From a virus (Duplodnaviria; Heunggongvirae; Uroviricota; Caudoviricetes): a stretch of 64,000 bases of DNA. A model generated the notes under the pieces. That model did no database searches. It was not told where the DNA came from and saw only the letters and a program-made list of their open reading frames with translations. Below are positions 28,901-63,909 of the stretch, in pieces. Numbering within the stretch: the stretch's first letter is position 1; each line of letters starts with the position of its first letter. The position numbers were made by a program, and so were the translations under genes. The stretch lies in IMG/VR virus record IMGVR_UViG_2574180019_000006; one strand, written 5' to 3'.

Positions 28901-29422
28901 TTATTCTTCGAACAATTTTTCGATAGATTTTGTAGGATAGAACAAAGAACGCTCGTTGTTACCAACCAGCTGGATAAAGTCTAAACTTTTATAAAACGCC
29001 TTGGCTTTGTCATTTAACGCCTCAACGAAAAGTCCATGAATGCCTACAGCAAGAGATGCATTGTACACAACGCGCATTGCATGTGTTACAAGCATTGAGC
29101 CAAATCCTTGACCTTGAAGGGACTTGTCCAAAGCCAGCCTACCCAAAGTAACACTTGGAACATTCCGATAAGGTACCTTCTTTTGCTGGCTTCTTGAAGG
29201 TAAGGACTCCTTTTCAAAGCAGCTACCTGACAAAGTGTAATACCCTAACACTTTTGGTCTGCCTTCTTTCGTGCAAAGCACATAAGCGCGAAGAATTTTT
29301 CCCTCATGCTGCCTTTTTAAGTGGTTGGTTAAAAAGGCATTTAGTGATTCTTCACCGCAATCAAAACCATTCAAATCATAATGTTTCTCTCCAGAGAAAA
29401 TTTCTATCTTTATATTATCCAC
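28901..29422 (-). CDS. GNAT-family acetyltransferase toxin (TacT/KacT-like)
   Basis: 173 aa with GNAT acetyl-CoA-binding motif (LGRLALDKSLQGQGFGSMLV); directly downstream of a DUF1778-type antitoxin on the same strand. Confidence 0.7.
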   Translation of the reverse strand: MDNIKIEIFSGEKHYDLNGFDCGEESLNAFLTNHLKRQHEGKILRAYVLCTKEGRPKVLGYYTLSGSCFEKESLPSRSQQKKVPYRNVPSVTLGRLALDKSLQGQGFGSMLVTHAMRVVYNASLAVGIHGLFVEALNDKAKAFYKSLDFIQLVGNNERSLFYPTKSIEKLFEE

Positions 29423-29429
29423 GAGTAAA

Positions 29430-29699
29430 CTACTCCATGCTTTTCAGACGATCAGCAGCTCGTTTCAGCTTGTCGTTCGGTGCCGGAGGATTGCTTATAG
29501 CGTCCATAACCAGATTCCAGGATTCTTCATTCAGAACTAGTCTACGGTGTTGCTCTATAACTTTCACGGCACGTTCAGATGCACTGCTAACCATAAACTG
29601 AGTAATGCTCTGGTTAGACATTGCGGCAGCTTCCTCGATGATGCTTTTATCGTCATCGGTTAATCTCAAATCGATGCGCTGCTTTTTTAGTGCTGACAT
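29430..29699 (-). CDS. DUF1778-type (RHH) antitoxin (TacA/KacA-like)
   Basis: About 90 aa from the ATG preceded by AGGAGG; sequence MSALKKQRIDLRLTDDDKSIIEEAAA is typical of DUF1778 antitoxins paired with GNAT toxins. Confidence 0.65.
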   Translation of the reverse strand: MSALKKQRIDLRLTDDDKSIIEEAAAMSNQSITQFMVSSASERAVKVIEQHRRLVLNEESWNLVMDAISNPPAPNDKLKRAADRLKSME

Positions 29700-30017
29700 G
29701 TATTCCTCCTGATGGCCGTGATGTAGGAAGGCCATCAATCTCCTCTGTTCAAACTGAGTTTTCGACTCAAAAATTACTTTAAAAGGCTATAGCCCATTAC
29801 GTGTGCATTATCAAATTGTGTACGGCATATCACCGTACTTGTAATATAGATGTCATTGTTACTTTTTTCAACAGACAAATACAAGCTATGTTTGCCAATT
29901 GTTAATCACAACCTACCATTTAACCTTTACACCGCAGCCGTAGGCATTTAGGCTATATCACATATAAGAAAACAAGTTGTTTCAGACGATAATTATATAC
30001 GCAAAGGGAACTCTCCA

Positions 30018-30686
30018 ATGACCAAGATCTTTGTGGTTGGCGGCACAAAGGGCGGGCCTGGCAAATCCACCGTTGCCCAGCAAATTGCCGTTTGCCTGAA
30101 AGTCAAAAAGAAGAAGAAGGTTTATATTACCGATATAGATATTCAGCGCACGACAACGAGCTGGTGTGAAGACCGTCGACAGAACGAAGACCTTGAGCTG
30201 ATTCCTTTTGCATACGTTCAGGATGACATCATTAAGCATCTAAAATCGCTTCAGGGTAGAGCTGAGTTTGTAGTGGTAGATGCTGGTGGCTTCGACTCCG
30301 AAATTCAGCGACAAGCGATGCTGATGGCTGACGTTATCATTATCCCGCTGCGTCCTAAGCGTCGTGATTTGAAATCTTTACGTGACATCGATCCTATTAT
30401 CGACAATGTTCGCAATGTAAACGATAAAGTGAAGGTCCGCGCGGTCATGAACCAGTGCCCGGCTTTGCCATCACAAGTGTCTCGCATTCTGGCGGCTAAA
30501 GAGATTGTTGAGACGTTTGGAATCGAGTCTGCGCCAGTCAATCTATATAACCGCAACGTCTATGATGATGCGGAAGAGTCTGGTCGTTCTATCTTTGAAA
30601 TGACCGGTAGCGAGCGCGACAAAAAGGCGGAAGCCGAGTTTGAAGAATTTGTAGATTATCTGTTGAGTCTGGAGGAAGAAGAATAA
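30018..30686 (+). CDS. parA: ParA-family partition ATPase
   Basis: Deviant Walker A motif GGTKGGPGKST near the N-terminus; 222 aa; followed by a small basic protein. Confidence 0.8.
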   Translation: MTKIFVVGGTKGGPGKSTVAQQIAVCLKVKKKKKVYITDIDIQRTTTSWCEDRRQNEDLELIPFAYVQDDIIKHLKSLQGRAEFVVVDAGGFDSEIQRQAMLMADVIIIPLRPKRRDLKSLRDIDPIIDNVRNVNDKVKVRAVMNQCPALPSQVSRILAAKEIVETFGIESAPVNLYNRNVYDDAEESGRSIFEMTGSERDKKAEAEFEEFVDYLLSLEEEE

Positions 30687-31045
30687 TGTCCATGAAAATG
30701 GGTGACCTAGCAAAGCGCAAAGAGCCTGATGCACCGGCTAAGAACACAACTCCTTTGCGCCAACCAGTCAGACCACAGGGACGCCCGACTCGTGGCAAAG
30801 AGAAAATTAAAAGCCGCACAATGTCACTGGAGGACGAATACTTCGAACTGCTGGAGATGATGAAGTTCATCCCTCGCTTCGAGAAGTTCACTCGTTCTGA
30901 CGTGATTCGAGCAGCCATTTTCCATCTGGCAGAGAAGTCACCGCAGGAAATCGAGGACATCGTGAAATTGAATGAGGCGATCACCGCTGCCGATGTCACG
31001 ATGCGTACCGATGAAATCAAACGAGAGTTGATGAAGAAAGGTTAA
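30686..31045 (+). CDS. Partition protein (ParB/ParG-like centromere-binding protein)
   Basis: 119 aa, basic N-terminus, start overlaps the parA stop; typical small partner of a short ParA. Confidence 0.5.
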   Translation: MSMKMGDLAKRKEPDAPAKNTTPLRQPVRPQGRPTRGKEKIKSRTMSLEDEYFELLEMMKFIPRFEKFTRSDVIRAAIFHLAEKSPQEIEDIVKLNEAITAADVTMRTDEIKRELMKKG

Positions 31046-59658: not shown

Positions 59659-59674
59659 CTCCCCTAAAAAGTTC

Positions 59675-59700
59675 AGGCGTCCAGTTGGACGCCTTTTTTA
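59675..59700 (+). terminator. Rho-independent terminator
   Basis: AGGCGTCC-agtt-GGACGCCT followed by TTTTTT. Confidence 0.7.
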
Positions 59701-59749
59701 TCGCAATTATCTTATTAAGAAAATAATTTGTTTAAAAGGATAAGAAAAC

Positions 59750-60175
59750 ATGACAGCTATTAAGAAACTCTACGATGCCGCAAACGTGGCTCTGGATGTT
59801 ATTGATGATGAAGCAGCAAAAGGCTTTCCTGAACCTGATTGGGCGCATCAGCTACGAAACGCTATCGCAGAAATGACCCCACCAGATCCAACCCCCGAGG
59901 AGACAGACTGGCAGCGATTCATCCGTATGTACGCTCAGGAAATAGGTCCAACGCCAACGGCAGAGCAGGCAATGCTGCTGAAATACTTCAAAGAGGCGGG
60001 AGAGGATTTACCAATTGATGACTCAGCATATTGGTTCCACTGCGCATGGCGTAAGTATGACGTGATATTCACACAAGGCATGGGAAGCAAAGATATGGTT
60101 GTGTGGCATCTACTCCATATAGACACAGCCGTTGACAGAGTTATTGAACAGTTTTTCCCTAAACAAGAAGATTGA
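59750..60175 (+). CDS. Hypothetical protein
   Basis: 141-aa ORF preceded by the AGAAAATAATTTGTTTA motif. Confidence 0.4.
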   Translation: MTAIKKLYDAANVALDVIDDEAAKGFPEPDWAHQLRNAIAEMTPPDPTPEETDWQRFIRMYAQEIGPTPTAEQAMLLKYFKEAGEDLPIDDSAYWFHCAWRKYDVIFTQGMGSKDMVVWHLLHIDTAVDRVIEQFFPKQED

Positions 60176-60725: not shown

Positions 60726-61057
60726 AGACCATTCCATTCGCGCTGTTGTTTCTTTCTTCGATCGTTGTGGCCGACACCACTGTTTATCAGTGTGAAATGT
60801 CTGTAGCCGACGTTAAGAATGGCGCTCTTACCGACGTCATAAAAGCACCATATGGAGCGATGGTCGTAGACAGCGGCGACCAGTTCTATGTTGTGCGTGA
60901 CGATCGAGTGTTGTCATCCCCATATCTCACAAATCGTAATGGCAAATTAACCGGCGTCGGAGAAGACCACTTCGTATACAACAAATACAAGGGCTTCTAT
61001 GGCGTTCACGCTTCTCAGCAAAGCTACCTTTTCGATGACTGCAAGGAGGTTGGGTAA
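60722..61057 (+). CDS. Secreted hypothetical protein
   Basis: 111 aa with N-terminal signal peptide (MKTIPFALLFLSSIVVA). Confidence 0.4.
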   Translation: MKTIPFALLFLSSIVVADTTVYQCEMSVADVKNGALTDVIKAPYGAMVVDSGDQFYVVRDDRVLSSPYLTNRNGKLTGVGEDHFVYNKYKGFYGVHASQQSYLFDDCKEVG

Positions 61058-61269
61058 TGGCATTAACACTGGCAGGTCTGGAAATCGAGAAAACAAGCGG
61101 CTACTGGCGTGCTAAGGGTTTCAAGCAGCCTGGCATTCTTGAGCGTCTGGAACGTGAAGATGGGTATATCGTCCACCAGCGGCGTGAATGGCGTATGTAC
61201 GATCCAGAAACAGGAAAACTGACTACAAAAGCCGGAACACTTTGGGGTCTGTTAAAGAAAATACACTAA
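61057..61269 (+). CDS. Hypothetical protein
   Basis: 70-aa ORF overlapping the previous stop. Confidence 0.35.
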   Translation: MALTLAGLEIEKTSGYWRAKGFKQPGILERLEREDGYIVHQRREWRMYDPETGKLTTKAGTLWGLLKKIH

Positions 61270-61315
61270 ATGCAAACTGACTGCGGCACGTTCCGCAGTC
61301 ATATTTCATAGTCGT

Positions 61316-61851
61316 CACCGCTGACAGCATACACAATCAACTACCGCTGATAGCATATCGAGAGTCTATCTCACCGCTCACAGCATACTTTACTCGATTT
61401 TTTACCGCTGACAGCATACTTAAGAAATTGCATGAATAATGTGTCCCGGTATGGGTATAACCAGAACAAAATTACCGCTGGCAGCATACGAATGTCTGAC
61501 ATATACCATTAATTACCGCTGATAGCATATCCAAACAAAAATTCCTCAATAAAACACCGCTGACAGCATACGTTCTATCAGGGAGTAGCAGGCAATAAAT
61601 GCCTTTCACTACAAGCAATCAGCGCAATAGCAATAGAATGTTAGTGAGCGCAAACCTATATGGAATGCACTCTTCGAGGTTAGTAACCACTGGGGAGGTA
61701 TGACAGAGCATTGAGTGGTGATAGATGATTTACCGCTCACAGCATACGTTCATCTCACTATACCGCTGGTAGCATATCTTTAACCGTTCACAGCATACTT
61801 TTCAGAAAAATAGCCGCTGATAGCATACATTTCACCGCTGACAGCATATCA
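61316..61851 (+). repeat. Iteron array downstream of repA (12 copies of a 19-bp repeat, consensus TTACCGCTGACAGCATAC)
   Basis: Twelve direct repeats in two blocks (61316..61572 and 61730..61851) at 22-41 bp centre-to-centre spacing with variable spacers. Confidence 0.8.
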
Positions 61852-62943
61852 AAGCAGTTTGAGACTATTGGAAAGGATCTCAATCATCTTGATATTTTCA
61901 GGCGTCAAATTCTGCGAAAGTTCGGTTATCTTGTTGATAATGTTCTGTTTGGCATCAATTTCCCCAGCTTTCTCATCTGGTTTTTTGGGTTCGATGTCTT
62001 CAGGTTTTGGCGGTGCGACTTTGAGTTTTGGATTGCGGCTGTGAATCTGGATATAGATCGACCGCCCACGCTTAATCTCGCTGTATTCGAGATAGCCCAA
62101 ATCTTGGAGAGCTTTTAAGCCGTTACGTATAGTCTGATTCTGCGAGCTGACATTCCTGCTACTCAAATTGAGTCGCGCACGCAATCGAGCAAGCGATACC
62201 GGCGCAGGCTTGGTTGGAAGACTTTCGATGAAGGTGTACAGAGCCTGTGCTGTTTCTTTGCGTGGTAGCTTATTGATAACCTTTAACTGCAAAAGAACCT
62301 TATGGTCAAAGCGATATAGTTCGGCCAGCTTCGGTTCTGCATAGAACACCACCGTATCTTTCTGCTCGTTGTAGTCCACGCTATTGATGAGGTGCACCAT
62401 CAGAAGCGAGATCTTGTTAGAGCCGTCGACGTTCTTTTCTTCATACGTTCTCTGGAAAGACAGAGTTGTACGCATGATCTTCAAAAGACTGTTTGTAAGC
62501 CGGTCGCGGAGTGTTTTGCGGATCTGTGACGATGGATAGCCACAAAACTTAGCAAATTTCGTGATGCTTAACTCGACACGACCGTTAGGTTCGCCGTATT
62601 CTGCCAGCGAACGCACAACGCCCACCCACGTTTTGAAATCATGATCCATGTCGAGACGAGGACCGGTTATCTTGATATCGGAATAGCCTTCAGAACGGGC
62701 TACTTCGAGCTGGACAAGCTCCTTTGAAGCATCGATCTCATTTGGCTTGTTACGTTTACTGTATTTTGTTCCCTTAAGCGTGGGGACGAACAACCCCAGT
62801 CGCATCAACGCAATTGGTTGGACTGTATTGTTGCTATTAGGGACAAGTTCCCCTGTGTACAATTCAAGGGAACCTTCTTCAAAGTTGTCGATGTTATCTT
62901 CTACTTCTTTGTTATTTTTACCTTTTTTATTTTTTGTGGACAT
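61849..62943 (-). CDS. repA: Iteron-binding replication initiator (RepA-like)
   Basis: Minus-strand ORF flanked on both sides by the same iterons; start set at the ATG at 62943 (MSTKNKKGKNN...), giving 364 aa; the ORF-track start at 63063 would run into the upstream iterons. Confidence 0.65.
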   Translation of the reverse strand: MSTKNKKGKNNKEVEDNIDNFEEGSLELYTGELVPNSNNTVQPIALMRLGLFVPTLKGTKYSKRNKPNEIDASKELVQLEVARSEGYSDIKITGPRLDMDHDFKTWVGVVRSLAEYGEPNGRVELSITKFAKFCGYPSSQIRKTLRDRLTNSLLKIMRTTLSFQRTYEEKNVDGSNKISLLMVHLINSVDYNEQKDTVVFYAEPKLAELYRFDHKVLLQLKVINKLPRKETAQALYTFIESLPTKPAPVSLARLRARLNLSSRNVSSQNQTIRNGLKALQDLGYLEYSEIKRGRSIYIQIHSRNPKLKVAPPKPEDIEPKKPDEKAGEIDAKQNIINKITELSQNLTPENIKMIEILSNSLKLL

Positions 62944-62961
62944 GTGGACACCTTTGTCATT

Positions 62962-63066
62962 CAACCGCTGACAGCATACTTGATTTGCCGCTGACAGAAT
63001 ACCAAAAACAGTTGGCAGCATACGGTGAACCGCTGACAGACTATCAATTACCGCTGACAGCATACA
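62962..63066 (+). repeat. Origin iterons upstream of repA (about five copies)
   Basis: CAACCGCTGACAGCATACT, TGCCGCTGACAGAATACC, partial GTTGGCAGCATACGG, GAACCGCTGACAGACTATC, TTACCGCTGACAGCATACA. Confidence 0.75.
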
Positions 63067-63105
63067 TGAACATGACTTCAGACCAGTCGTGGCGCGGGTT
63101 ACAGC

Positions 63106-63178
63106 GATCGGGGATCTTATTTGATCTATATAAGGATCTATCTATGGATCTCTTTATTAGGATCTATCCTGTGGATAT
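63106..63178 (+). promoter_or_regulatory. Replication origin core: GATC cluster plus DnaA box
   Basis: Six GATC sites within 60 bp of AT-rich sequence, followed by TGTGGATAT (8 of 9 match to the DnaA box consensus, reverse orientation), adjacent to the origin iterons. Confidence 0.55.
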
Positions 63179-63264
63179 GTGAATAATTAAAACAGGCATT
63201 TACTACCTTCGGCGCACCTGGTGGGTTATCGTTGCCTCGGCTAACAATCACAGAAAAATGACAT

Positions 63265-63909
63265 ATGGATCTAAAACGCACGCGCTGGGTTCGTCGTCTT
63301 GAAGACGGCTCCTACACTATCGAATCAAATTCCAACCTGAATAAGCAGAAGTTGCTTTGTGACATCTGCGGTATAGCGGCGAAGTGCCCGATCTACGAAA
63401 CCAGAATTAAACTTGATAAGGCTGGTGTGAATTTTCATTTAAACAGTTGCATCAGGTACGTTCCATTACTCGCATTTCGTAAACCGATCATCGGATTGGA
63501 TGCCCCCTACTTCAACACACTCCGTTCAGGTGTGACGTGGCGAGATCGTTTATCACCAGACAAGCTGATTTGCCTCGTATCCGCAGACACAGGGAAAATC
63601 ATCCGTTTTGGGAAAGTAGACAAGGTTTACTCAGGCCCAGTAGACGAAATGTTGCGGAAACACAGCCGGTTTAATCATCTCTGTATGGGTGGTGAGAAAA
63701 TCGAGAAGGTAGAAGAAGTGATCCGCAAATCCTACGGACACTTTCTGACCAAAGATAGCCTGCTCACCGCAATCTACATCAGACATGTAAAACGTGAGTT
63801 CGACCTCGAATACCACAGCGAAGAAGAGCTTAACCTTGTTGACCCACGTCCAAAAGCTGGCGTCATAAGCATAAACGCAGCGCGTAAAAAGCCCACTGAC
63901 GCGCTGTAA
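63265..63909 (+). CDS. Hypothetical protein
   Basis: 214-aa ORF downstream of the origin region. Confidence 0.4.
   Translation: MDLKRTRWVRRLEDGSYTIESNSNLNKQKLLCDICGIAAKCPIYETRIKLDKAGVNFHLNSCIRYVPLLAFRKPIIGLDAPYFNTLRSGVTWRDRLSPDKLICLVSADTGKIIRFGKVDKVYSGPVDEMLRKHSRFNHLCMGGEKIEKVEEVIRKSYGHFLTKDSLLTAIYIRHVKREFDLEYHSEEELNLVDPRPKAGVISINAARKKPTDAL

What the first reader, a model, noticed from the sequence alone, without database searches (positions are those of the whole stretch)
61290..63180. Iteron-controlled replicon with origin and copy-control arrays flanking repA
About five iterons lie upstream of the minus-strand repA and twelve downstream, all sharing the 19-bp consensus TTACCGCTGACAGCATAC. 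The upstream array sits beside a GATC cluster and a DnaA box. This architecture resembles the well-characterised P1-type plasmid replicon (origin iterons plus a downstream copy-control array), although the repeat sequence is different. It supports plasmid-like maintenance of this phage.
Basis: partly seen in the sequence, partly recalled or inferred. Interest (0 to 1): 0.5.

Follow-up and report, generated by a model that had tools for sequence, protein, structure and literature searches.

The report
P1/RepFIB-type iteron replicon of phage-plasmid
This is the plasmid-maintenance replicon of an SSU5-like E. coli phage-plasmid, a true relative of the textbook P1/RepFIB iteron replicons that is already catalogued for plasmid typing; it is real and correctly interpreted, but ordinary.

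Summary
Seventeen copies of the core ACCGCTGACAGCATAC lie at 61317-63065, against 0.42 expected by chance. Five sit upstream of a minus-strand rep gene and twelve downstream. Six GATC sites and two tandem DnaA boxes flank the upstream array.

The 364-aa Rep is 46% identical to P1 RepA (E 3e-86) and 51% identical to classical RepFIB RepA. Its predicted fold matches the winged-helix initiators RepE and RctB. The DnaA-box, GATC and GC-spacer core aligns base by base with P1 oriR. As in P1, the first downstream iteron overlaps the rep stop codon.

The window is 99.8% identical to p09EL50, to phage PhiR41_1 and to more than 120 circular plasmids of about 110 kb. Its Rep is identical to that of p09EL50 and pECOH89, the IncFIB-type replicon of SSU5-like phage-plasmids. 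The replicon is therefore already known.

It differs from P1 in iteron sequence, in having 12 co-oriented control iterons split 5+7, and in having no adjacent par operon. The one unexplained item is a conserved 60-bp dyad element (61635-61694) inside the control array.

The parts
63170..63186 (-). Two tandem DnaA boxes at the outer edge of the origin: TTATTCACA (63186-63178) and ATATCCACA (63178-63170), overlapping by 1 nt
   Evidence: Each is 1 mismatch from TTATCCACA. They align with the annotated tandem DnaA site of P1 oriR, 62891-62908.
63106..63164 (.). A+T-rich GATC cluster with six GATC sites. Five lie in (A/T)AGATC(C/A) heptamers spaced 10-14 bp apart, plus one CGATCG. This is the presumed Dam/SeqA-controlled unwinding region.
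   Evidence: It is the densest GATC stretch in the window, with A+T of 62-72%. It aligns column by column with the five Dam sites of P1 oriR and with the Klebsiella and SSU5 origins. Function is inferred from P1.
63066..63105 (.). G+C-rich spacer between the GATC region and the iterons (…CCGATCGCTGTAACCCGCGCCACGACTGG…)
   Evidence: Alignable with the P1 sequence CTGATCGTTGCAGGCCGCGCCACGTCTGG and with the Klebsiella origin.
62964..63065 (-). Origin iteron array, the counterpart of P1 incC. Five 16-bp cores start at 62964, 62987, 63008, 63029 and 63050 (spacing 23, 21, 21, 21). The third is the most degenerate.
   Evidence: The number, phasing and degenerate third copy are conserved in Klebsiella and Cronobacter relatives. 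In the Salmonella relative the third copy falls below the 4-mismatch threshold, so only four are detected. P1 incC has 5 copies spaced 22, 21, 21, 21.
62976..63005 (-). Candidate rep promoter inside iterons 4-5: TTGGTA, 18 nt, AAGTAT. It is the positional counterpart of P1 PrepA (TTGCTA, 18 nt, TAGGAT).
   Evidence: Inferred from the alignment to P1. It is weak and was not picked up by the consensus promoter scan.
62935..62951 (-). Tandem TGTCCACA x2 straddling the rep start codon. These are weak DnaA-box-like sequences (2 mismatches each).
   Evidence: The Klebsiella relative has GTATCCAC and P1 has CTATCCACA at the aligned position. Significance is uncertain.
61849..62943 (-). rep (repA), 364 aa, with start ATG at 62943 preceded by AAGGTG. 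It is an iteron-binding initiator of the P1 RepA / RepFIB family.
   Evidence: Pfam Rep3_N and PHROG 775. 46% identity to P1 RepA, 51% to RepFIB RepA, 48% to SSU5 RepA. AlphaFold model mean pLDDT 70.8, with block means of 79-92 over residues ~70-210; Foldseek matches RctB domains 2-3, RepE, the pPS10 RepA WH1 domain and TrfA. Many plasmid assemblies are rotated to begin at this ATG.
61732..61849 (-). Proximal control iterons: five copies starting at 61732, 61762, 61783, 61813 and 61834 (spacing 30, 21, 30, 21). The last overlaps the rep stop codon by 1 nt.
   Evidence: The same 'starts on the stop codon' arrangement is seen in P1 incA and in all relatives examined.
61635..61694 (-). Conserved 60-bp non-iteron dyad element: CCCAGTGGTTACTAACC, then 19 nt, then AGGTTTGCGCTCACTAACATTCT. 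Function unknown.
   Evidence: Unique in the window. It is conserved downstream of rep in 83 IMG/VR loci that span two iteron specificities, and it is inverted in the SSU5 type. There is no Rfam hit and only weak RNA-structure support.
61317..61571 (-). Distal control iterons: seven copies starting at 61317, 61343, 61373, 61404, 61474, 61515 and 61556 (spacing 26-70 bp)
   Evidence: The copy number varies among relatives (8-12 downstream in total). Phage PhiR41_1 lacks the three outermost copies.
61278..61301 (.). G+C-rich hairpin (9-bp stem). It looks like a bidirectional terminator and marks the boundary between the replicon and the convergent plus-strand operon that ends at 61269.
   Evidence: The stem is conserved and the loop differs in the Salmonella relative. 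DNA homology with SSU5 stops at 61267.

Best explanation
Window 61278-63186 is the low-copy plasmid-prophage replicon of an SSU5-like E. coli phage-plasmid. It belongs to the P1 oriR-repA-incA / RepFIB family and is the type catalogued as IncFIB of pECOH89/p09EL50.

Shown here: the anatomy and the homology.

Inferred from P1 and RepFIB biology (established knowledge, not tested here):
- RepA monomers bind the five phased origin iterons at 62964-63065.
- The rep promoter lies within the origin iterons, so RepA represses its own synthesis.
- The twelve downstream iterons (61317-61849) titrate RepA and pair with origin iterons, both in cis by looping and in trans by 'handcuffing'. This holds the copy number near one to two per chromosome and determines incompatibility.

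RepA and its iterons form a specificity cassette (61268-63104). It differs from the SSU5/pHCM2 allele at the same genomic position, whereas the host-factor half of the origin and the flanks are shared.
For: - Iterons: 17 copies against 0.42 expected, with phasing and layout.
- Rep family: Rep3_N; 46% identity and E 3e-86 to P1 RepA across nearly its full length; 51% to RepFIB RepA; tandem winged-helix fold matching RepE, RctB and TrfA.
- Origin core: nucleotide-level alignment with annotated P1 oriR and with a classical RepFIB locus, which has the same order of DnaA box, 5 GATC, spacer and iterons.
- Conservation: iteron cores are conserved while spacers diverge in Klebsiella, Salmonella and Cronobacter relatives at 78-85% DNA identity. 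All have five origin iterons, except that one degenerate copy goes undetected in Salmonella. All have 8-12 downstream iterons starting on the stop codon.
- Plasmid state: 204 plasmid records match, 198 of them non-mobilizable, typically 100-115 kb and circular. The Rep of p09EL50 is 100% identical, and p09EL50 was seen as a ~110-kb plasmid by PFGE and called IncF (PMC3486847). pECOH89 RepA is identical to that of p09EL50 (PMC3999498). SSU5-group phage-plasmids are typed IncFIB (PMC7969092; bioRxiv 10.1101/2025.09.12.675607).
- Other maintenance genes in the window: a ParA-like ATPase with a 119-aa partner at 30018-31045, and a TacA/GNAT toxin-antitoxin pair at 28901-29738.
- Cassette boundaries against SSU5.
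Against: - No functional test was possible. Replication, RepA-iteron binding, autorepression, copy control, and Dam, SeqA or DnaA dependence are all transferred from P1 and RepFIB.
- No consensus sigma-70 promoter was detected on the rep strand within the iterons. The proposed promoter is only a weak positional counterpart of P1 PrepA.
- All twelve control iterons are co-oriented with the origin iterons, unlike P1, where six of nine are inverted. Looping geometry may therefore differ.
- The element encodes its own DnaE, DnaB-like helicase and ligase, so the division of labour between this replicon and lytic replication is unknown.
- The 60-bp element inside the array is not accounted for by the P1 model.
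Confidence: 0.9

Rival explanations
1. The replicon is real, but the downstream array is not mainly a copy-control (incA-like) locus. It could be a second origin, a partition or centromere-like site, or a landing pad for another protein.
For: The array is split by a conserved non-iteron element. It has no adjacent par operon, unlike P1. Its copy number drifts from 8 to 12 among relatives.
Against: The repeats share their core with the origin iterons, so they should bind the same RepA. There are no DnaA boxes or GATC cluster next to them. Their placement from the rep stop codon onward is the same as P1 incA and is conserved. A ParA-like system lies about 31 kb away.
Confidence: 0.05
2. RepA and the iterons serve chiefly as the phage's lytic (vegetative) origin rather than for plasmid-prophage maintenance.
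For: The element carries a full set of replisome genes: dnaE, a DnaB-like helicase and a ligase. No separate lytic origin was identified here.
Against: The characterised members of this family that I know of (P1 oriR, RepFIB) are low-copy plasmid replicons with negative control by extra iterons, a design that opposes runaway lytic replication (established knowledge; P1 annotation). The same replicon sits in more than 120 stably carried plasmids, including shortened derivatives of about 62-76 kb.
Confidence: 0.05
3. The repeats flanking rep are recombination sites or prophage ends (attL/attR), as one public record annotates them.
For: The Klebsiella phage pJN2-26 record labels two 20-bp repeats flanking rep as attR and attL.
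Against: Those 'att' sites are two of 13 iterons in that locus. There are 17 phased copies here, homologous in position to P1 RepA-binding sites. The elements are circular plasmids rather than integrated prophages.
Confidence: 0.01

Closest known systems
Bacteriophage P1 plasmid replicon (oriR / incC - repA - incA)
   Same: The order of parts is the same: tandem DnaA boxes, GATC heptamers in A+T-rich DNA, G+C-rich spacer, five 21-bp-phased iterons, repA, then a second iteron array starting on the repA stop codon. RepA is 46% identical over the whole P1 protein. The origin core is alignable at nucleotide level.
   Different: - Iteron core is GTATGCTGTCAGCGGT here against GATGTGTGCTGGAGGGAAA in P1.
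- There are 12 control iterons against 9, all co-oriented, whereas P1 has 6 inverted and 3 direct.
- The array is split by 160 bp that carries a conserved 60-bp element absent from P1.
- RepA has about 30 extra N-terminal and about 55 extra C-terminal residues.
- parAB-parS is not adjacent; a ParA-like gene lies about 31 kb away.
- There are six GATC sites against five.
RepFIB replicon of IncF plasmids (P307/F type RepA, 325 aa)
   Same: This is the closest characterised Rep by sequence: 51% identity, E 1e-109. The match includes the Pro/Glu/Lys linker, and both proteins have a C-terminal helical tail that P1 RepA lacks. A RepFIB locus shows the same origin core of DnaA box, five GATC sites, spacer and iterons. 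PlasmidFinder's 'IncFIB' label for SSU5-like phage-plasmids reflects this relationship (PMC7969092).
   Different: The iteron sequence differs (ATAAnCTGT-type in RepFIB). The genomic context is a phage-plasmid backbone rather than a conjugative F plasmid. The RepFIB downstream region was only partly available (246 bp), so the arrays could not be compared fully.
SSU5 / pHCM2 / pLF82 (Cyrano) replicon allele at the same locus
   Same: The flanking genes and position are the same, and the DnaA/GATC origin half is shared at 77% DNA identity. RepA is 48% identical. The 60-bp element is present in both.
   Different: - The iterons differ (AACCACTGTAGAGAG type), and the SSU5 downstream array contains both orientations.
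- The SSU5 origin module is duplicated.
- The 60-bp element is inverted in SSU5.
- DNA homology is lost across 61268-63104 apart from patches within rep, so the two alleles should be compatible. This is an inference.
Other iteron initiators: mini-F RepE (ori2, incB/incC), pPS10 RepA, RK2 TrfA, Vibrio chromosome 2 RctB
   Same: They share the predicted tandem winged-helix fold: Foldseek E 1e-7 to RctB domains 2-3, 2e-5 to RepE, and hits to the pPS10 WH1 domain and TrfA. They also share the general logic of origin iterons plus extra control iterons.
   Different: There is no detectable sequence similarity to any solved structure. The origin architecture and the iterons are unrelated.

Membership tests
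P1 oriR-RepA / RepFIB replicon family | Initiator homologous to P1 RepA / RepFIB RepA | tested here: met
   BLASTP gives 46% identity and E 3e-86 to P1 RepA over residues 20-284 of 286, and 51% identity and E 1e-109 to a 325-aa RepFIB-type RepA. tblastn hits P1, P7 and RepFIB-annotated genes.
P1 oriR-RepA / RepFIB replicon family | About five direct iterons in helical phase immediately upstream of rep | tested here: met
   Five copies spaced 23, 21, 21, 21 at 62964-63065, against P1 incC spacing of 22, 21, 21, 21.
P1 oriR-RepA / RepFIB replicon family | Origin core with tandem DnaA boxes, GATC-containing heptamers in A+T-rich DNA and a G+C-rich spacer, alignable to P1 oriR | tested here: met
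   compared with the P1 annotation. The same core is present in a classical RepFIB locus.
P1 oriR-RepA / RepFIB replicon family | Second array of the same iterons downstream of rep (incA-like), starting at the stop codon | tested here: met
   Twelve copies at 61317-61849, the first overlapping the stop codon. P1 incA copy 9 ends at the first base of the repA stop. This is conserved in relatives.
P1 oriR-RepA / RepFIB replicon family | rep promoter embedded in the origin iterons (autorepression) | tested here: inconclusive
   There is only a weak positional counterpart of P1 PrepA at 62976-63005. The consensus scan found no minus-strand promoter.
P1 oriR-RepA / RepFIB replicon family | Autonomous RepA-, DnaA- and Dam-dependent replication, and copy control or incompatibility exerted by the downstream array | not testable with these tools
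   This needs mini-replicon, host-mutant, copy-number and incompatibility experiments.
Rep3 / winged-helix (WH1-WH2) iteron initiators (Pfam PF01051 and relatives) | WH1 domain detectable by profile | tested here: met
   Rep3_N E 3.9e-9, 37.5 bits against a gathering score of 22.4, residues 118-239. All 120 listed homologues carry PF01051.
Rep3 / winged-helix (WH1-WH2) iteron initiators (Pfam PF01051 and relatives) | Two tandem winged-helix domains as in RepE | tested here: met
   The AlphaFold model has mean pLDDT 70.8 and a confident core. Foldseek against the PDB matches RctB domains 2-3 at E 1e-7, the RepE dimer and monomer at 2e-5 to 2e-3 over about 215-225 columns, and TrfA. No Pfam hit was obtained for a C-terminal (WH2) domain, and no PDB hit by sequence, so this rests on the predicted fold.
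IncFIB replicon type of SSU5-like phage-plasmids (pECOH89 / p09EL50 allele) | Rep identical or nearly identical to the reference plasmid's Rep | tested here: met
   100% identity over 404/404 aa to the p09EL50 Rep. pECOH89 RepA is reported as identical to that of p09EL50 (PMC3999498). The PlasmidFinder name 'IncFIB(H89-PhagePlasmid)' is from my own knowledge and could not be checked against the PlasmidFinder database here. MOB-suite types p09EL50 as rep_cluster_488.
Prophage attachment sites (attL/attR), as annotated in record MZ779062 | A single pair of identical direct repeats at prophage-host junctions | tested here: not met
   There are 17 phased copies here and 13 in that Klebsiella locus. 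They flank rep inside a circular replicon.

The most novel reading that the evidence does not exclude
The conserved 60-bp dyad element at 61635-61694 may be a previously undescribed cis-regulatory site of SSU5-like replicons. It sits within or beside the copy-control iterons. It stays constant while RepA and the iterons change specificity (85-100% against 48% Rep identity). Its position and orientation are rearranged between replicon types.

Because it does not co-vary with the iterons, it is more likely read by a factor common to the phage-plasmid backbone or the host than by RepA's specificity determinants. One example would be a switch coupling plasmid copy control to the lysis-lysogeny state. 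Alternatively, it could be a second class of initiator site bound through a conserved surface of RepA, in the manner of the RctB 39-mers or the RepE operator.
Probability: 0.2. Interest if true: 0.45.

Novelty: already known. Interest (0 to 1): 0.18.

Why it matters
The practical value lies in annotation. The replicon explains how this roughly 108-kb phage persists as a plasmid in E. coli and Shigella, including lineages that carry CTX-M-15 (pECOH89). It also gives a base-level map that public records lack. In every record inspected the iterons are unannotated. In one record they are mislabelled as att sites. RefSeq starts Rep inside an iteron.

The map predicts that this allele is compatible with the SSU5/pHCM2 allele, and it predicts which sequences determine incompatibility. 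Natural variants with 8-12 control iterons, such as PhiR41_1 with 9, offer a ready-made copy-number series. None of this changes what is understood about iteron replicons.

Tried and rejected
- Tandem Repeats Finder misses the iteron arrays because their spacing is irregular.
- NCBIfam gives no hit for Rep.
- Sequence searches of the PDB, by single sequence and by profile, find nothing relevant. Only the fold search links Rep to RepE and RctB.
- The consensus promoter scan finds no minus-strand promoter in the origin iterons.
- Rfam in E-value mode finds nothing in 61000-63400.
- RNAalifold on seven variants of the 60-bp element gives only -6 kcal/mol and one compensatory pair, so an RNA reading is not supported. 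A batch strand folding failed on a length limit and was not repeated.
- I compared the 60-bp element by eye with Tus-Ter (GTTGTAAC core), XerCD dif/cer and IHF consensus sequences recalled from memory. None fits, and all were dropped.
- An early impression that SSU5 origin iterons are inverted relative to rep came from the partly palindromic core (GCTGACAGC). The multiple alignment puts P1, SSU5 and window iterons in the same orientation.
- The 14-base pattern scan of viral contigs returned 37 of 120 loci without a Rep homologue. These are chance matches or truncated loci.
- blastn of the 91-bp element against plasmids only reaches close relatives.
- The 2026 bioRxiv preprint on phage-plasmid heteroresistance could not be opened.
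- Literature searches pairing 'iteron' with SSU5, phage-plasmid or pHCM2 found no description of these arrays in the held library. That library lacks most subscription journals.
Full report
**What is there**

Window 61317-63065 holds 17 co-oriented copies of a 16-bp core. On the plus strand it reads ACCGCTGACAGCATAC; in the sense of the gene it reads (G/A)TATGCTGTCAGCGGT. A search allowing 3 mismatches finds 18 matches in the 64-kb window against 0.42 expected, and none of 100 shuffles reaches that number.

- Five copies (starting at 62964, 62987, 63008, 63029, 63050; spacing 23, 21, 21, 21) lie just upstream of a minus-strand ORF.
- Twelve lie downstream. A tight cluster of five (61732-61849; spacing 30, 21, 30, 21) has its last copy overlapping the stop codon by one base. 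A looser cluster of seven (61317-61571) is separated from it by 160 bp.
- Outside the upstream array come a G+C-rich spacer, then six GATC sites within 59 bp (63106-63164). This is the densest GATC stretch in a window whose overall GATC count is at the random expectation.
- Beyond those lie two tandem DnaA boxes at 63186-63170, each one mismatch from consensus.

The corrections are minor: the quoted consensus has 18 letters rather than 19; there are two DnaA boxes rather than one; and the downstream array is bipartite.

**The gene**

The ORF is best read as 61849-62943 (364 aa). That ATG is preceded by AAGGTG at a suitable distance. Homologues called at 364-366 aa start there, and many assemblies have been rotated to begin at that base.

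RefSeq's 404-aa model starts at 63063, inside the outermost iteron. Its first 40 residues are translated iterons.

The evidence on the protein is as follows:
- It hits Pfam Rep3_N (WH1) above the gathering score and PHROG 775 at 5e-133.
- It is 46% identical to P1 RepA across essentially the whole P1 protein (E 3e-86).
- It is 51% identical to a classical 325-aa RepFIB RepA and 48% identical to SSU5/Cyrano RepA.
- Most family members, including this one, carry a Pro/Glu/Lys-rich linker and a short C-terminal helical tail. P1 RepA is the short outlier.
- No solved structure is detectable by sequence.
- An AlphaFold model built from 33 homologues has mean pLDDT 70.8 with a confident core. It matches RctB domains 2-3, RepE (dimer and monomer), the pPS10 RepA WH1 domain and TrfA. 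These are the tandem winged-helix iteron initiators.

**Comparison with P1**

The richly annotated P1 record reads, in the repA direction: a tandem DnaA site; five Dam sites; five incC iterons spaced 22, 21, 21, 21 with PrepA inside them; repA; and nine incA iterons, the last ending on the repA stop codon. The window has the same parts in the same order.

The resemblance is more than architectural. The DnaA-box, GATC-heptamer and GC-spacer half of the origin aligns base by base with P1 oriR, with the Klebsiella relative and with SSU5. A classical RepFIB locus shows the same core. Only the iterons differ, as expected if they co-evolve with RepA's DNA-reading surfaces.

The differences from P1 are:
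- The iteron sequence.
- Twelve control iterons rather than nine.
- All control iterons co-oriented with the origin iterons, whereas in P1 six of nine are inverted.
- The 160-bp interruption of the array.
- No par operon next to the array. In the window a ParA-like ATPase with a 119-aa partner lies at 30018-31045, and a TacA/GNAT toxin-antitoxin pair lies at 28901-29738.

**What the element is**

The 2.1-kb region is 99.1-99.9% identical to Escherichia phages PhiR41_1 and CMS-2020a. It matches 204 plasmid records; 121 cover at least 80% of it and 198 are non-mobilizable, typically circular and 100-115 kb, from E. coli, Shigella and E. albertii.

One of these is p09EL50 of E. coli O104:H4, whose Rep is 100% identical. 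It was seen as a plasmid of about 110 kb by PFGE and described as IncF and related to pLF82 and pHCM2 (PMC3486847). pECOH89, the CTX-M-15 phage-like plasmid, has a RepA identical to that of p09EL50 and 48% identical to that of pLF82 (PMC3999498).

SSU5-supergroup phage-plasmids are typed IncFIB by PlasmidFinder (PMC7969092), and typing tools include their replication genes (bioRxiv 10.1101/2025.09.12.675607). From my own knowledge, the pECOH89 allele is PlasmidFinder's 'IncFIB(H89-PhagePlasmid)'. I could not run that tool.

The rest of the window carries terminase, portal, capsid and tail genes, dnaE, a DnaB-like helicase, a ligase and an integrase. This is consistent with an SSU5-like phage-plasmid.

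**Evidence of constraint**

Relatives at 78-85% DNA identity (Klebsiella pJN2-26, a Salmonella Newport plasmid, a Cronobacter plasmid) keep the same 16-bp core while the spacers diverge. They keep five origin iterons with the same 21/21/21/23 phasing and the same degenerate third copy. In the Salmonella relative that third copy falls below the detection threshold, so four are counted. All start the downstream array on the stop codon.

Across 47 IMG/VR loci with full flanks:
- The origin array is five in all but one locus.
- The downstream array is 12 in all 22 near-identical loci, and 8-11 in the Klebsiella, Cronobacter and Salmonella types.
- Phage PhiR41_1 lacks the three outermost copies through an 87-bp deletion between iterons.

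Compared with SSU5, DNA homology runs up to 61267 on one side and resumes at 63105, the edge of the GATC cluster, on the other. Only patches remain inside rep. RepA, both iteron arrays and the G+C-rich spacer therefore form a divergent specificity cassette at a conserved locus.

**Mechanism**

The anatomy is shown here. The function is inferred from P1 and RepFIB.
- RepA monomers bind the five origin iterons. Host DnaA binds the tandem boxes. The methylated GATC-rich A+T region opens, and after firing it is sequestered by SeqA.
- RepA bound to iterons 4-5 should repress its own promoter. A weak counterpart of P1 PrepA (TTGGTA, 18 nt, AAGTAT; 63005-62976) occupies the homologous position, but no consensus promoter was detected.
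- The twelve downstream iterons titrate RepA and pair with origin iterons (handcuffing) to hold copy number low and determine incompatibility.

I give this reading about 0.9 for identity and general mechanism. The individual steps are untested for this allele.

**Rivals**
- The downstream array might have another main role (0.05).
- The replicon might serve mainly for lytic replication (0.05).
- The repeats might be att sites, as one record annotates them (0.01). The copy number and phasing refute this.

**The unexplained piece**

The 160-bp gap contains a 60-bp element at 61635-61694. In the rep sense it reads CCCAGTGGTTACTAACCTCGAAGAGTGCATTCCATATAGGTTTGCGCTCACTAACATTCT. It is an imperfect dyad, with a second ACTAAC 43 bp after the first, and it is unique in the window.

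A 14-base pattern from it recovered 120 viral contigs, 83 of which carry a Rep homologue. In these the element lies a few hundred bp downstream of rep, where both fall within the fetched stretch.
- It is on the rep strand in the H89, Klebsiella, Cronobacter and Salmonella types.
- It is on the opposite strand in the SSU5/pHCM2 type, whose iterons are different.
- In Klebsiella it follows the last iteron instead of splitting the array.

It is the only recognisably conserved non-coding stretch inside the divergent cassette. It was not found in the P1 replicon region examined. It has no Rfam match, gets weak support as RNA, and lies under no annotation in any plasmid record.

Because it does not co-vary with the iterons, I think it is more likely a site for a backbone-encoded or host protein than a RepA specificity site. 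This is conjecture.

**Verdict**

The replicon is a catalogued member of a textbook family, so novelty is 'already known' and interest is low. What this analysis adds is a base-level map, several annotation corrections and one small unexplained conserved element.

Noticed in passing
window 61635-61694: A conserved 60-bp dyad element sits inside the copy-control iteron array. It is shared by replicon alleles with different iterons, inverted in the SSU5 type and relocated in the Klebsiella type. Its function is unknown.
   Followed up: partly
window 62944-63063 (RefSeq WP_001348683.1 start): The RefSeq/PGAP Rep model (404 aa) starts inside the outermost origin iteron, so its first 40 residues are translated iterons. 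The 364-aa start at 62943, with an AAGGTG ribosome-binding site, is far more plausible. The 404-aa cluster holds 667 member sequences, so the mis-start is widespread.
   Followed up: partly
L005 (MZ779062, Klebsiella phage pJN2-26) 2378-2397 and 3648-3667: Two iterons flanking rep are annotated as phage attachment sites attR and attL. They are two of 13 RepA-type iterons in that locus.
   Followed up: yes
L004 (Salmonella phage SSU5) 1760-2010 and 2130-2460: SSU5 carries two copies of the origin module (DnaA box, GATC cluster, iterons) upstream of repA. Flank homology with the window continues into the distal copy.
   Followed up: partly
L001 (phage PhiR41_1) compared with window 61317-61403: PhiR41_1 lacks the three outermost control iterons (9 instead of 12) through an 87-bp deletion between iterons. 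It is a natural copy-control variant.
   Followed up: yes
window 62935-62951: Tandem TGTCCACA x2 straddles the rep start codon and resembles weak DnaA boxes. P1 (CTATCCACA) and Klebsiella (GTATCCAC) have a box at the aligned position.
   Followed up: partly
window 62594-62609: A single inverted iteron-like sequence (GTATTCTGCCAGCGAA, 4 mismatches) lies inside the rep coding region. It is not detected in the more distant relatives, and about 0.2 such matches are expected by chance. It is probably fortuitous.
   Followed up: partly
window 61849-62943; PHROG 775; RefSeq P1, P7 and SSU5 records: This RepA family is labelled 'replication helicase' in PHROGs and in several RefSeq phage records. It is a winged-helix origin-binding initiator, not a helicase.
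   Followed up: partly
window 28901-31045: Other plasmid-maintenance genes lie about 31 kb from the replicon: a TacA-like antitoxin and GNAT toxin (28901-29738, minus strand), and a ParA-like ATPase with a 119-aa partner (30018-31045, plus strand). No centromere was sought.
   Followed up: partly
window ~59660-59750 compared with L002 2467-4489: p09EL50 has three extra ORFs (about 2 kb) between the SPFH-domain gene and the 141-aa ORF that are absent from the window.
   Followed up: no
window 61278-61301: A 9-bp-stem G+C-rich hairpin sits between the convergent plus-strand operon and the replicon. The stem is conserved and the loop differs in the Salmonella relative. It is a likely bidirectional terminator or insulator.
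   Followed up: partly
window 61268-63104 compared with L004: DNA homology with SSU5 stops at 61267 and resumes at 63105. RepA, both iteron arrays and the G+C-rich spacer behave as an exchangeable specificity cassette, whereas the DnaA/GATC half of the origin belongs to the conserved backbone.
   Followed up: yes
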